Assembly (NCBI GenBank): GCA_021738485.1
Contig: JAIPBX010000002.1
Coordinates: 2,395-66,394, forward strand
Direction: 5' to 3'
DNA from: Bacteroidales bacterium
Lineage (GTDB): Bacteria > Bacteroidota > Bacteroidia > Bacteroidales > JAIPAH01
Length of the DNA stretch: 64,000 nucleotides
The translations under genes and the position numbers were made by a program. Of this stretch, positions 18,833 through 21,747 are shown piece by piece. How positions within the stretch are numbered: position 1 is the stretch's first letter; the number at the start of each line of letters is the position of its first letter. Below the pieces are notes generated by a model, which ran no database searches, was not told the DNA's origin, and saw only the letters and a list, made by a program, of their open reading frames with translations.

Positions 18833-21747
18833 TGGATATTAGTAATTTTTTACGTCTGATAAAAAAGAATTTGCTTTTGCTTATTGGAGTACCCCTCATT
18901 CTGGCGGCATCTGTCTATTTCTTCAGTCGTAATCAGCCTAAAACCTACTCCTCGGAAACAGTAGTATATACGGGAATTGGCTCTGGTTATTCCGCTGAGA
19001 ACCAATCAAGAACACGGCTGGACCATTACGCTACTAACATGCAATTCGACAATGTAATCAAGATTGTGAATTCGCGCAGCACCAAAGAGCAAACCGCTAT
19101 CCGGCTTCTTGCCCAGCATTTGTGTATGGAGAAACCCGATCCCAAATATATTTCCGAAGATCAATACAGGCAATTACAGCGTATTGTCCCTAAAGAAGTG
19201 AAAGACCTTGTTGTAAAATATGGAAAAACAGGGGCCGAAAGGGACAGACTGGAAGAAATCAAGCAGAAAGAGAAAAAAATTGAAGAGCTTAACAGAGAGC
19301 TGCGCCAGGAACAGCAACGAATCCAAAGTATCACTTCCAGCGGAGGAGAGAATAACAGAAGTACCGGCCAAACAGGCCAAATAATTTCTCCCGGCGACAC
19401 GCTCTCACAAGGGCAATATCATACGGTGAGCTATGGAGAATCCCTGAAATCAATTGCCAACCGCTATGGTATGACGGTCGGTGAACTCATGAATCTCAAC
19501 AATATGAGGGATACCGATATTAAAGTGGGAGACCGTCTGCTTATAAGCAGGACAACGCAAAAGGCTTATAGCAAAGGAAAGCAGGTTCAATACACTTATC
19601 ATACTGTAAAGGATCAGGAAACGCTATACAGCATTGCTAAACAGTATGATGTTTCGGTAAATGATATAAAAAACTGGAATAACCTCTCGGATGAGTCCAT
19701 AGATCAAGGCCAAAGACTTATTGTCGGGCAAAAAAGTACCCGACCCGATACCGCTGAAGGAGCAAAGCAGCAGGATGAAGAAAGGACCCAGTATTCGGAA
19801 CATGTAATGGAAGATTTTCGCTTTATCGATCCGGAAAAGAAAGCCACAGAGGCCAAAAAAGAAGATGCTATCGTCCCTCCCGGAGTTAATAAAAACGATT
19901 ACTACCAGACCGTGCAAAATTTAATGGGCTATTATCAAAGCAGTGATTCGAATTTTGTCTATGAACTGCTTCAATATACTCACCCTATATACAGCATTGA
20001 AGCTATATCGAGAGCCCAGGTGTCGCGGGTACAAAACTCCGATTTTATCAATATCAGCTACACATCAAAAGATCCTGGCATTTGTCAGCAAACCCTTAAA
20101 ATTCTGACGAATGTCTTTATCCAGAACTATAAAAACCTGAGAGAGCGACAAACCGATCAAGTAGTGAATTATTTCCAGAAACAGGTGCAAAAAGCCAGTA
20201 AGCGCCTGAAAGATGCGGAAAACCGTTTACTCAATTTCAAAAAACGAAATAATCTTATCAATTATACCGAGCAAACAGAAGCCATTGCCGTACAAAAGGA
20301 ACGACTCGACAAACAATACCAGGATGTGCAGGCTCAAATGCGGGCGGCAGCCGCTTCCCTTAATAAGCTTGAATCTAAGCTGGCCCGTAAAGACAGCATC
20401 TTTATCAAAAGCGATTTGATTTCGAACAAAAGAAAAGAACTGGCGGAAGTTACTTCTAAGCTGACCGTAAACGAGATTGCCCAGGATTATGATGAGGTGA
20501 CCTCCGACAGGGTGCAGGAATTAAAAGAGCGCAAGCAGGAACTCAGAGATGAGCTAAAGCTGTATGTCGATCAGCTATACTCCTACCAGCAATCCATTGA
20601 AGGCATTCCTATGGAGGATTTGTTGGATCAGTGGCTGACAAAAACGATGAATTACGAGGAGGCCAAAGCAACTATGGAGGTACTTGAACAGCGTAAAAGC
20701 GACTTTCAGGAGACCTATAGAGTCTTTGCTCCCCTGGGAGCTACAAAAAACAGGATTGAACGGGAGATCAATGTGGCGGAACAAGAGTACCTCGAACTTC
20801 TCGGCAGCCTCAATGAGGCGCGAATGCGACAGCAAAACCTGGAGATGACCTCCAATATCAAGGTGGTCGACCCGCCATATTACCCCTTGACTGTTACCTC
20901 AAGCCGTACTAAAATACTGATTCTCGCCGCTGCTGTCATTGGCTTTATATTGGTTGCTTTTGTGATCCTCGTGCTTGAATACTTCGACAATACCAATAAA
21001 ACACCCGAACGTATCACCAAGGCAACAAATCTCAGTCTGGCAGGTGCTTATCCCAGTCTTTATACGCAGGAAGAAAATGTGGATCTCCCCTACGTGATTA
21101 ATAGGATGTCGGAAATGATTGTCCAAAATCTAAAGCTCCGGTTGAGGTTTACTTCGATTAAAAAACCGGTTAAGCCTTACTTCGTTTTGATTTTTAGTAC
21201 GCAACCCGAAGCTGGGAAGACATATGCCGGCCATAAGATTAAAGAAAAACTTCAAGAGTTCGGCTCCAATGTGTTGTATCTCAATTACAAACCTTCGGTA
21301 GACCAGGAGTATTCCGAATCCGAATATGTATACACCATTAATAATCAGTTTTTTGAAATAGAGCATATCAGAGAGCTTTTGGATAAAACCGCCCTGCGCT
21401 CAGACAATCGTGAATATGACTATATTTTGCTGGAAATTCCCAATATTATTCACAATACCTATCCTATGGATCTGATGCGCACTCTGGATGCAGCATTGCT
21501 GGTAACCCGGGCTACAACAACATGGAAAAAGGCAGACCGCATGGCCCTTGAAAACTTTAACCGCGTAGCTGAAGAGGAACCCATGATTATTTTGAACGAT
21601 GTGGAGATGTATGTCATCGATGAATTACTCCATGGAGTACCAACTGCCGGAAAGTCGAGATGGGAGAGATACAAAGATATGGCTACCACGCCTTTCCGGA
21701 TGCGAGTTCAATTCAAAGATTCAGATAAGAATAAAAGCGGCGAATAA
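18832..21747 (+). CDS. Wzc-like polysaccharide co-polymerase (Wzz domain, coiled coil, two LysM domains, second TM, C-terminal P-loop BY-kinase-like domain)
   Basis: N-terminal TM plus a Wzz-like region. LysM repeats YHTVSYGESLKSIANRYGMTVGELMNLNN...GDRLLI and YHTVKDQETLYSIAKQYDVSVNDIKNWNN...GQRLIV. A long coiled coil, then TM ILILAAAVIGFILVAFVILVL. Walker-A-like FSTQPEAGKT, DYILLEIP and ALLVTRA. No Tyr-rich C-terminal tail. Confidence 0.75.
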   Translation: MDISNFLRLIKKNLLLLIGVPLILAASVYFFSRNQPKTYSSETVVYTGIGSGYSAENQSRTRLDHYATNMQFDNVIKIVNSRSTKEQTAIRLLAQHLCMEKPDPKYISEDQYRQLQRIVPKEVKDLVVKYGKTGAERDRLEEIKQKEKKIEELNRELRQEQQRIQSITSSGGENNRSTGQTGQIISPGDTLSQGQYHTVSYGESLKSIANRYGMTVGELMNLNNMRDTDIKVGDRLLISRTTQKAYSKGKQVQYTYHTVKDQETLYSIAKQYDVSVNDIKNWNNLSDESIDQGQRLIVGQKSTRPDTAEGAKQQDEERTQYSEHVMEDFRFIDPEKKATEAKKEDAIVPPGVNKNDYYQTVQNLMGYYQSSDSNFVYELLQYTHPIYSIEAISRAQVSRVQNSDFINISYTSKDPGICQQTLKILTNVFIQNYKNLRERQTDQVVNYFQKQVQKASKRLKDAENRLLNFKKRNNLINYTEQTEAIAVQKERLDKQYQDVQAQMRAAAASLNKLESKLARKDSIFIKSDLISNKRKELAEVTSKLTVNEIAQDYDEVTSDRVQELKERKQELRDELKLYVDQLYSYQQSIEGIPMEDLLDQWLTKTMNYEEAKATMEVLEQRKSDFQETYRVFAPLGATKNRIEREINVAEQEYLELLGSLNEARMRQQNLEMTSNIKVVDPPYYPLTVTSSRTKILILAAAVIGFILVAFVILVLEYFDNTNKTPERITKATNLSLAGAYPSLYTQEENVDLPYVINRMSEMIVQNLKLRLRFTSIKKPVKPYFVLIFSTQPEAGKTYAGHKIKEKLQEFGSNVLYLNYKPSVDQEYSESEYVYTINNQFFEIEHIRELLDKTALRSDNREYDYILLEIPNIIHNTYPMDLMRTLDAALLVTRATTTWKKADRMALENFNRVAEEEPMIILNDVEMYVIDELLHGVPTAGKSRWERYKDMATTPFRMRVQFKDSDKNKSGE

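What the first reader, a model, noticed from the sequence alone, without database searches (positions are those of the whole stretch)
19417..19725. Two LysM domains inserted into the periplasmic region of the Wzc-like co-polymerase
Two ~43-aa repeats with the LysM pattern lie between the first TM/Wzz segment and the long coiled coil, so they should be periplasmic. They read YHTV-x-x-GE/ET-L-x-SIA-x-x-Y...N-x-L/N...I-x-x-G-x-R/L-L-I/V. LysM modules bind GlcNAc-containing glycans such as peptidoglycan. I do not recall this module in characterised PCP-2a proteins. It could tether the export complex to the cell wall or recognise the nascent polymer. The cytoplasmic P-loop domain is retained (FSTQPEAGKT), but there is no Tyr-rich tail for autophosphorylation, and no cognate phosphatase gene is visible.
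Basis: partly seen in the sequence, partly recalled or inferred. Interest (0 to 1): 0.65.

Follow-up and report, generated by a model that had tools for sequence, protein, structure and literature searches.

The report
Cell-wall-binding LysM pair inside polysaccharide co-polymerase
A membrane protein that helps build and export a surface sugar polymer carries two genuine cell-wall-binding (LysM) modules on flexible tethers in its periplasmic part; this uncharacterised variant is common in uncultured Bacteroidales and most likely pins the export machine to the cell wall.

Summary
Window 19417-19725 encodes residues 196-298 of a 971-aa protein (18832-21747, +) and holds two LysM domains (Pfam E 6e-28, 96.9 bits against a cut-off of 20.9). 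They lie between the only two TM helices, so they are periplasmic.

The protein is a Wzc/PslE-like polysaccharide co-polymerase (Foldseek to Wzc, E 1e-16). Its C-terminal P-loop domain keeps the Walker A Lys. It has lost the Walker A' Asp/Arg, the ExxRxxR motif and the Tyr cluster, so it is not a BY-kinase.

The LysM pair belongs to a ~215-aa insertion (residues 129-345). The same place in the chain order holds Wzc's radial "motif 2". About 730-aa orthologues across Bacteroidia lack the insertion but sit in the same gene module: REC, REC-PGT, single-repeat TolC-like OEP, PCP, Wzx, Wzy and the same glycosyltransferases.

Forms with LysM are found in at least 78 species-level MAG genomes. LysM presence changed several times on the family tree (AU test rejects one clade). 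LysM domains are conserved (46-48% pairwise identity); their linkers are not (13-15%).

Best reading: a tethered peptidoglycan anchor for the export complex, inferred and untested. No paper describing it was found. It is a new variant of a known kind, of moderate interest.

The parts
18832..21747 (+). LysM-bearing polysaccharide co-polymerase (971 aa, Wzc/PslE-like)
   Evidence: ORF. Foldseek full-length match to Wzc 9r68/7nhr, E 1e-16. Family profile against PDB: PslE 9v6l, E 3e-8. TIGR03007/EpsF/TIGR01005 partial matches over residues 395-749.
18868..18927 (+). TM1 (residues 13-32)
   Evidence: Kyte-Doolittle windows above 1.5 occur only here and at TM2. Helix 14-32 in the model.
19216..19866 (+). 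Lineage-specific periplasmic insertion (residues 129-345), absent from ~730-aa orthologues
   Evidence: Class-wide genome search: 32 genomes match only residues 1-~140 and ~345-940. Alignments show 0-5 residues at this site in the minimal forms.
19231..19338 (+). Conserved 36-residue amphipathic helix with heptad a/d positions I143, L146, I150, L153, I157
   Evidence: H134-169 with pLDDT ~88-90. The length is 36 in all 120 LysM+ homologues, pairwise identity 0.47. Column profile.
19339..19416 (+). Disordered linker 0 (residues 170-195)
   Evidence: pLDDT below 50. Pairwise identity 0.13, length 14-39 across homologues.
19417..19551 (+). LysM domain 1 (residues 196-240)
   Evidence: Pfam PF01476 stretch 197-238. 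Beta-alpha-alpha-beta in the model. Pairwise identity 0.46.
19552..19593 (+). Short linker 1 (residues 241-254)
   Evidence: pLDDT below 50. Pairwise identity 0.13, length 1-19 across homologues.
19594..19728 (+). LysM domain 2 (residues 255-299)
   Evidence: Second Pfam LysM stretch, with LysM-subfamily matches at 252-298. E263, N283 and G293 are at least 90% conserved. Pairwise identity 0.48.
19729..19866 (+). Disordered acidic linker 2 (residues 300-345)
   Evidence: pLDDT below 50 for 303-344. Pairwise identity 0.15, length 24-71.
19867..20901 (+). PCP core: second part of the alpha/beta base, long helical hairpins (H415-472, H478-517, H527-582, H594-673) and the Pro-rich pre-TM2 motif
   Evidence: Model. 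GNVR PF13807 at 641-714, sub-threshold here but above threshold in homologues. P685 invariant, D680/P682/S691/G704 at least 90% conserved.
20908..20982 (+). TM2 (residues 693-717)
21037..21699 (+). Cytoplasmic BY-kinase-like P-loop domain with degenerate motifs. Walker A is 789-797 (STQPEAGKT, window 21196-21222). The Walker-B-like motif is 864-870 (ILLEIPN, window 21421-21441).
   Evidence: Foldseek to Etk 3cio, Wzc 3la6, CapA1B1 4jlv and BceF 6z0p. Motif alignment to the genome's own canonical Wzc. TIGR01007 scores 15.5 bits against a cut-off of 108.
18089..18832 (+). Single-repeat TolC-like OEP protein (247 aa, signal peptide); its TAA stop overlaps the PCP ATG by one base (TAATG)
   Evidence: Pfam OEP 1-187/187. 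Junction read. An OEP homologue sits directly upstream in 75 of 80 related loci and in the loci without LysM.
16265..17855 (+). Stand-alone receiver (16265-16633) and receiver-fused priming phosphoglycosyl transferase (16668-17855)
   Evidence: Conserved order.
21757..24725 (+). Wzx-like flippase (21757-23238) and Wzy-like polymerase (23226-24725)
   Evidence: Conserved order.

Best explanation
The gene encodes the inner-membrane co-polymerase (PCP) of a Wzx/Wzy-type polysaccharide system that is conserved across Bacteroidia. In this lineage the PCP acquired a ~215-aa periplasmic insertion. It consists of a conserved amphipathic helix, then two LysM domains held between disordered linkers. In the chain order the insertion sits between the first and second stretches of the membrane-proximal base domain. 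That is the place where E. coli Wzc carries its radially projecting motif 2, which points outward from the oligomeric ring and not into the lumen.

Most likely the tethered LysM pair binds the glycan strands of peptidoglycan around the complex. If the PCP is an octamer like Wzc and PslE, that gives up to 16 domains. Binding would fix the export machine in the sacculus and stabilise its alignment with the translationally coupled TolC-like outer-membrane partner.

The cytoplasmic domain keeps a nucleotide-binding P-loop but cannot run a Wzc-type tyrosine autophosphorylation cycle.

Shown: domain identity, topology, the insertion and its evolutionary dynamics, conservation, gene context and motif loss. 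Inferred: peptidoglycan as the ligand, the octamer, the outward-facing position and the anchoring role.
For: - LysM identity: Pfam E 6e-28, fold, and closest solved relatives are peptidoglycan-hydrolase LysM modules, LytE 8i2e at E 1.7e-31 and 4uz2.
- Periplasmic location: two TM helices only, with a cytoplasmic P-loop after TM2.
- True insertion: ~730-aa orthologues match residues 1-140 and 345-940 only.
- Same place in the chain order as Wzc motif 2, which is radial and contacts no neighbouring subunit (PMC8285477).
- Purifying selection on the domains but not the tethers: LysM 0.46-0.48 pairwise identity against 0.13-0.15 for linkers, whose lengths vary 14-39 and 24-71 aa.
- LysM is an accessory. 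Loci with and without LysM share the same glycosyltransferase set. LysM presence changed at least 7 times on the core tree, and one clade is rejected (AU p 1e-61).
- Reach is plausible. A 36-residue helix plus a ~26-residue flexible linker can span roughly 10 nm or more, against PslE's 156 A periplasmic height in a 230 A periplasm (PMC13434223).
- From established knowledge, other envelope-spanning machines use LysM-type wall anchors (TsaP and FimV of type IV pili).
Against: - No binding data exist, and LysM domains also bind chitin-like and other GlcNAc polymers.
- The locus encodes synthase-like GT2 enzymes and an acetyltransferase, so the product itself could be a LysM ligand.
- I could not read model coordinates, so the outward-facing position rests on chain order and on the Wzc paper, not on a superposition.
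- Orthologues without LysM work with the same gene set, so anchoring is not essential to the machine.
- The conserved heptad helix in the insertion has no explained partner.
- All carriers are uncultured MAGs, so there is no phenotype.
Confidence: 0.6

Rival explanations
1. The LysM pair binds the nascent or exported polysaccharide (a GlcNAc-containing polymer), not the wall. It would guide, retain or sense the product.
For: LysM domains bind GlcNAc-containing glycans in general. The closest solved LysM pair, 4uz3, was crystallised with a chitin oligomer (title and family knowledge). This GT set is conserved in most LysM+ loci.
Against: The same GT set occurs in orthologous loci whose PCP has no LysM, so handling of the polymer does not need LysM. 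LysM was gained or lost repeatedly while the locus stayed the same. The insertion is at the radial motif-2-equivalent site on long floppy tethers, not in the lumen-lining helices.
Confidence: 0.15
2. The LysM pair is a targeting device. It recognises a particular state of the wall (for example septal or denuded glycan strands) and so decides where on the cell the polymer is secreted.
For: Some LysM proteins localise to septa or to peptide-free glycan (family knowledge). Two tandem domains on tethers suit avidity-based site selection. Nothing in the calls distinguishes this from general anchoring.
Against: There is no evidence of polar or septal secretion in these organisms. The number of LysM domains varies (0, 1 or 2) among close relatives, which fits a quantitative anchor better than a specific address.
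Confidence: 0.12
3. The LysM pair is a sensor. Binding of wall fragments or of wall state changes the PCP conformation and so regulates polymerisation, replacing the lost tyrosine-phosphorylation switch.
For: The kinase-like domain lacks the autophosphorylation apparatus. The locus is otherwise heavily regulated, with receiver domains and two hybrid kinases.
Against: Orthologues without LysM have the same degenerate kinase-like domain (the invariants E868 and K796 hold in all 81 sequences, 8 of them without LysM). So loss of phosphorylation and gain of LysM are not linked. Floppy linkers transmit conformational signals poorly.
Confidence: 0.08
4. The insertion is a neutral domain accretion at a permissive loop, with no function.
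For: The site is hypervariable. It holds anything from 0 to ~270 residues, including low-complexity inserts with no recognisable domain.
Against: LysM domains are kept at 46-48% identity while adjacent linkers drift to 13-15%. They persist across about 10 family-level lineages of the order and in at least 78 species genomes. LysM appears in a separate, well-supported clade (P0164/P0171/P0175) with a differently built insert, which suggests recurrent acquisition.
Confidence: 0.05

Closest known systems
E. coli Wzc (PCP-2a, group 1 capsule / colanic acid; PDB 7nhr, 9r62-9r6b)
   Same: Best full-length structural match (Foldseek E 1e-16). Shared features: two TM helices, a membrane-proximal alpha/beta base, periplasmic helical hairpins, a fused cytoplasmic P-loop domain, and an extra module inserted between the first two stretches of the base (motif 2 in Wzc).
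   Different: The inserted module here is a helix plus two tethered LysM domains, not a jellyroll. The Walker A' Asp/Arg, the Walker B Asp, ExxRxxR and the Tyr cluster are missing. TIGR01007 scores 15.5 against a cut-off of 108. The adjacent partner gene is a single-repeat TolC-like protein, not Wza.
P. aeruginosa PslE (PCP-2 with a kinase-like pseudo-domain; PDB 9v6l, PMC13434223)
   Same: Best solved sequence relative of the PCP core (E 3e-8). Like PslE, the C-terminal domain lacks a Tyr cluster and a working kinase site, so the complex is probably a stable scaffold without a phosphorylation cycle.
   Different: PslE lacks the Walker Lys, whereas here K796 is invariant. PslE has no LysM or other wall-binding module. 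PslE docks on the OPX protein PslD, and no OPX gene is in this locus.
LysM modules of wall-acting and envelope-machine proteins (B. subtilis LytE 8i2e, T. thermophilus NlpC/P60 4uz2/4uz3; TsaP and FimV of type IV pili)
   Same: Same domain family and fold. Tandem copies sit on flexible linkers. In TsaP and FimV a periplasmic LysM ties an envelope-spanning machine to peptidoglycan (own knowledge, not tested here).
   Different: Here the LysM pair is spliced into the middle of a polytopic PCP, not at a terminus of a hydrolase or accessory protein. No catalytic wall-acting domain is attached.
The ~730-aa Bacteroidia PCP orthologues without LysM (e.g. loci L018-L025)
   Same: Same family (27-37% identity to P0001 in alignment A1). 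Same module of REC, REC-PGT, short OEP, PCP, Wzx and Wzy, the same glycosyltransferases, and the same degenerate P-loop motifs.
   Different: They have 0-5 residues, or only a short disordered stretch, at the insertion site.

Membership tests
LysM domain (Pfam PF01476) | Profile score above the curated gathering threshold | tested here: met
   96.9 bits against 20.9, E 6.2e-28, two stretches.
LysM domain (Pfam PF01476) | Beta-alpha-alpha-beta fold | tested here: met
   E194-198/H205-211/H216-222/E235-240 and E252-258/H265-271/H276-283/E295-302 in the model. Foldseek match to 4uz2.
LysM domain (Pfam PF01476) | Extracytoplasmic location | tested here: met
   Located between the only two TM helices, with a P-loop domain after TM2. 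This is a topological inference, not an experiment.
LysM domain (Pfam PF01476) | Binds GlcNAc-containing glycan (peptidoglycan or chitin) | not testable with these tools
   Needs a sacculus pull-down or ITC.
Polysaccharide co-polymerase (PCP; Wzz/Wzc superfamily) | N-in/C-in topology: two TM helices flanking a large periplasmic, helix-rich domain | tested here: met
   TM 13-32 and 695-715. Helical hairpins 415-673.
Polysaccharide co-polymerase (PCP; Wzz/Wzc superfamily) | Wzz (PF02706) and GNVR (PF13807) profile matches | tested here: inconclusive
   21.7 against 25.5 and 21.6 against 27.7 bits in this protein. Both are above threshold in family members (P0164 GNVR 35.7, P0171 Wzz 28.8).
Polysaccharide co-polymerase (PCP; Wzz/Wzc superfamily) | Pro-rich motif just before and overlapping TM2 | tested here: met
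   DPPYYPLTVTSSRTK...G704. P685 is invariant; D680, P682, S691 and G704 are at least 90% conserved.
Polysaccharide co-polymerase (PCP; Wzz/Wzc superfamily) | Structural similarity to solved PCPs | tested here: met
   Wzc E 1.2e-16. PslE E 3e-8 by profile.
Polysaccharide co-polymerase (PCP; Wzz/Wzc superfamily) | Encoded with Wzx flippase and Wzy polymerase | tested here: met
   Conserved order.
BY-kinase domain (as in PCP-2a; NCBIfam TIGR01007) | Walker A GK[ST] | tested here: met
   S789-T-Q-P-E-A-G795-K796-T797. S789, G795 and K796 are invariant.
BY-kinase domain (as in PCP-2a; NCBIfam TIGR01007) | Walker A' (hhhhDxDxR) | tested here: not met
   VLYLN818YKPS aligns with VGFDLRKP of the genome's own canonical Wzc. 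Asp is replaced by Asn and there is no Arg.
BY-kinase domain (as in PCP-2a; NCBIfam TIGR01007) | Walker B Asp (hhhhDxxP) | tested here: not met
   ILLE868IP aligns with IIIDSPP. Glu is invariant in the family.
BY-kinase domain (as in PCP-2a; NCBIfam TIGR01007) | ExxRxxR oligomerisation motif | tested here: not met
   It aligns as xxxQxxK.
BY-kinase domain (as in PCP-2a; NCBIfam TIGR01007) | C-terminal tyrosine cluster | tested here: not met
   2 scattered Tyr in the last 60 residues. The genome's canonical Wzc ends in (GY)n.
BY-kinase domain (as in PCP-2a; NCBIfam TIGR01007) | Curated family score | tested here: not met
   15.5 bits against a cut-off of 108.05. The canonical Wzc on contig C26 scores 178.9.
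BY-kinase domain (as in PCP-2a; NCBIfam TIGR01007) | MinD/BY-kinase P-loop fold | tested here: met
   3cio, 3la6, 4jlv and 6z0p with TM-score (target) 0.52-0.64.
PslE-type pseudokinase PCP | Kinase-like domain without the Walker Lys and without a Tyr cluster, docking on an OPX partner | tested here: not met
   The Tyr cluster is absent, as in PslE. But the Walker Lys is kept and invariant, and no OPX gene is in the locus.

The most novel reading that the evidence does not exclude
The LysM-bearing PCP and its translationally coupled single-repeat TolC-like partner form a previously undescribed trans-envelope polysaccharide exporter. In it the inner-membrane ring is itself the peptidoglycan-anchoring element. 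The conserved heptad helix of the insertion would make a second, outer collar around the ring, or contact the TolC-like duct. Repeated gain of LysM would then mark lineages in which the conduit must be locked into the sacculus.
Probability: 0.2. Interest if true: 0.75.

Novelty: new variant of a known kind. Interest (0 to 1): 0.5.

Why it matters
How Wzx/Wzy-dependent export machines cross the peptidoglycan layer, and how they are positioned relative to it, is not addressed by the Wza-Wzc and PslD-PslE structures; the word peptidoglycan does not occur in the PslD-PslE paper. This family is a natural PCP with a built-in wall-binding module. It exists in 0-, 1- and 2-LysM versions inside an otherwise constant gene set. 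That gives a ready-made comparative system to test whether wall anchoring matters for polysaccharide export. It also marks a permissive, outward-facing insertion site in PCPs, the motif-2 position. The carriers are abundant uncultured anaerobic Bacteroidales, where exopolysaccharide production shapes flocs and biofilms.

Tried and rejected
1. I expected LysM+ loci to have different glycosyltransferase sets, which would have argued that LysM must bind the invariant wall. This was rejected. The GT set is conserved in most LysM+ loci and also in loci without LysM. The argument was replaced by 'same locus with or without LysM'.
2. Helix 134-169 as a charged single-alpha-helix (ER/K) spacer. Rejected: it has conserved a/d heptad hydrophobics at I143, L146, I150, L153 and I157.
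3. Single origin of the LysM insertion. Rejected by the AU test. Gains and losses cannot be told apart.
4. 'The lineage has no Wza at all.' The window's genome shows none but is only 78% complete. Four of five complete LysM+ relatives have one Poly_export gene megabases away from the locus, and one has none. So the safe statement is only that no Wza is encoded in the locus.
5. Promoter and terminator scans of 16000-25000 gave counts no higher than shuffles.
6. Four literature searches for LysM in PCP/Wzc/chain-length determinants found nothing relevant.
8. Model coordinates are not readable in the Python box, so no distances or superpositions were measured.
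Full report
**Observation**

The finding's coordinates (19417-19725) are residues 196-298 of a 971-aa ORF at 18832-21747 (+).
- Pfam LysM (PF01476) matches with E 6.2e-28 and 96.9 bits against a gathering score of 20.9, in two stretches.
- The two copies are 44% identical to each other.
- An AlphaFold2 model built on 81 relatives (mean pLDDT 77.9) shows two beta-alpha-alpha-beta units at 194-240 and 252-302.
- Foldseek pairs them with the tandem LysM of T. thermophilus NlpC/P60, 4uz2/4uz3, at 32-35% identity.
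- A family profile finds B. subtilis LytE LysM at E 1.7e-31.
- Hydropathy finds only two TM segments, 13-32 and 695-715. A P-loop domain follows TM2, so the LysM pair is periplasmic.

**What the protein is**

- Foldseek's best full-length matches are E. coli Wzc structures (E 1.2e-16).
- The family profile's best solved PCP relative is P. aeruginosa PslE (E 3e-8).
- NCBIfam chain-length-determinant models match residues 395-749.
- Pfam Wzz and GNVR are just below threshold here but above it in family members.
- The Pro-rich pre-TM2 motif is conserved.

The C-terminal domain has the BY-kinase/MinD fold: Etk 3cio, Wzc 3la6, CapA1B1 4jlv and BceF 6z0p. It has an invariant Walker A (S789, G795, K796).

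The same genome encodes a canonical Wzc on contig C26 (56993-59455, minus strand). That protein has ExxRxxR, Walker A/A'/B and a (GY)n tail, and it passes TIGR01007 with 178.9 bits against a cut-off of 108. I aligned the family profile to it:
- the Walker A' Asp is Asn818 and the Arg is absent;
- the Walker B Asp is an invariant Glu868;
- ExxRxxR reads xxxQxxK.

The tail holds 2 scattered Tyr, and TIGR01007 scores 15.5. The domain is therefore kinase-like but not a BY-kinase. It resembles PslE in that respect (PMC13434223), except that PslE has also lost the Walker Lys. The only LMW-PTP in the genome lies on another contig.

**The LysM pair is part of an insertion**

A class-wide sample of 301 species genomes gave 32 others with a 716-807-aa homologue. 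These match residues 1-~140 and ~345-940 only. Alignments place the insertion between the conserved strings P..VK.LVVK and D[FY]E[KQ]TV. Minimal forms have 0-5 residues there.

In this protein the insertion (129-345) has these parts:

| Residues | Part | Evidence |
|---|---|---|
| 134-169 | Amphipathic helix | pLDDT ~88-90; exactly 36 residues in all 120 close homologues; conserved heptad a/d positions |
| 170-195 | Disordered linker | pLDDT below 50 |
| 196-240 | LysM1 | Pfam stretch, fold |
| 241-254 | Short linker | pLDDT below 50 |
| 255-299 | LysM2 | Pfam stretch, fold |
| 300-345 | Disordered acidic linker | pLDDT below 50 |

Mean pairwise identities:

| Region | Identity |
|---|---|
| LysM1 | 0.46 |
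| LysM2 | 0.48 |
| Insertion helix | 0.47 |
| Linkers | 0.13-0.15 |
| PCP core | 0.62 |
| C-terminal domain | 0.47 |

Linker lengths vary (14-39, 1-19 and 24-71 residues). The domains are under constraint and the tethers are not.

In Wzc, motif 2 (residues 110-206) is likewise inserted between the first and second stretches of the base domain. It projects radially and touches no neighbouring subunit (PMC8285477). By chain order the LysM insertion occupies the equivalent place. I could not superpose coordinates.

**Distribution and evolution**

- The word-indexed search found 585 clusters at 90% identity. The best 120 are all 914-992 aa with LysM and carry generic names only.
- Against 1.84 billion 50%-identity representatives there are 606 hits at E <= 1e-30. 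A few are LysM+ clusters of 900-980 aa; many are ~730-aa clusters without LysM.
- In a sample of the window's own order (151 genomes, 148 genera), 35 carry the family. About 11 of these carry a LysM form, in about 10 family-level groups.
- Among species-representative genomes, the 80 best loci are all uncultured MAGs labelled Bacteroidales, Lentimicrobiaceae or Marinilabiliales. A local LysM HMM finds two domains in 46 of them, one in 32, and none in 2 truncated ones.
- Family members exist with 2, 1 or 0 LysM, and with disordered inserts that hold no domain.
- I built a tree of the core with the insert columns removed. LysM presence needs 9 changes, at least 7 of them forced by well-supported branches. 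The AU test rejects a single LysM+ clade (delta lnL 368, p 1e-61).
- One separate clade (P0164/P0171/P0175) has a single LysM in a differently built insert. This suggests independent acquisition at the same hot spot. Gains and losses cannot be formally separated.

**Context**

The conserved order is mutL, two rhomboids, (EEP), uvrB, REC, REC-PGT, short OEP, PCP, Wzx, Wzy, then glycosyltransferases. It holds at 44-47% PCP identity.

The core module and most glycosyltransferases recur in loci of other orders that lack LysM: GT2 pair, synthase-like GT2, GT4s, acetyltransferase and a second synthase-like GT2.

The 247-aa OEP protein is a single TolC repeat. Its stop overlaps the PCP start (TAATG). 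A homologue sits directly upstream in 75 of 80 loci.

No Poly_export (Wza) gene is in the locus or in this 78%-complete genome. Of five complete LysM+ relatives, four have one Wza megabases away and one has none.

**Mechanism**

By homology with the Wzz-Wzy and PslE-PslJ work, the PCP probably forms a ring around Wzy. It would extend its helical hairpins towards the outer-membrane partner; the longest helix has 80 residues.

The LysM pair is tethered on the outside of the ring. A 36-residue helix plus a ~26-residue flexible linker could reach the peptidoglycan layer. I judge a peptidoglycan anchor the most likely role (confidence 0.6). It would immobilise the machine and align it across the envelope, as the LysM proteins TsaP and FimV do for type IV pilus secretins (own knowledge).

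The main rival is binding of a GlcNAc-containing product. That rival is weakened because the same locus works without LysM in many lineages, and because LysM comes and goes on the tree while the GT set stays the same. It is not excluded.

**Novelty and score**

The architecture is real, conserved and common in uncultured Bacteroidales. It is annotated only generically, and nothing in the searched literature describes it. Wall-binding modules in envelope machines are a known theme, and PCPs are a known family. I therefore class this as a new variant of a known kind, with interest 0.5.

Earlier notes of this scan report the same architecture in other genomes and treat the half-TolC partner separately. 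I used them as leads only.

Noticed in passing
own genome, contig C26:56993-59455 (-), locus L001: A second, canonical Wzc-type BY-kinase PCP (820 aa) has ExxRxxR, Walker A/A'/B and a striking (GY)9-like tail, GGYGYGYGYGYGYGYGYGYY. It stands alone next to a topoisomerase I-like gene and a peptidase-like gene (named from N-terminal sequence only, not profiled). No Wza is detectable in this 78%-complete assembly.
   Followed up: partly
window 24785-33327 and loci L018, L020-L023, L026, L027, L029, L030: The whole glycosyltransferase set of the locus is conserved at 37-77% identity across different orders of Bacteroidia: GT2 pair, two synthase-like GT2, three GT4 and an acetyltransferase. The polymer is therefore probably one conserved, still unnamed class-wide exopolysaccharide and not a variable capsule.
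   Followed up: partly
window 18089-18832: A single-repeat TolC-like OEP protein is translationally coupled (TAATG) to the PCP. A homologue lies directly upstream in 75 of 80 related loci. One complete LysM+ genome has no Wza at all. This is already the subject of another finding of the scan.
   Followed up: partly
proteins P0154, P0169, P0174, P0248, P0249 (family members without LysM, 876-980 aa): Some ~730-aa-type relatives carry C-terminal extensions of roughly 160-290 residues after the P-loop domain. Their content was not examined.
   Followed up: no
loci L064 and L101: Two LysM+ loci come from MAGs labelled Chlorobiota and Myxococcota (43-44% identity, contigs of 83 kb and 343 kb). This is probably mis-binning or mislabelling rather than transfer. 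Not checked.
   Followed up: no
window 19231-19338 (residues 134-169): The helix that opens the insertion has an invariant length (36 residues in 120 homologues), an invariant G134, a near-invariant R137 and a clean heptad stripe. This implies a protein-protein interface whose partner is unknown.
   Followed up: partly
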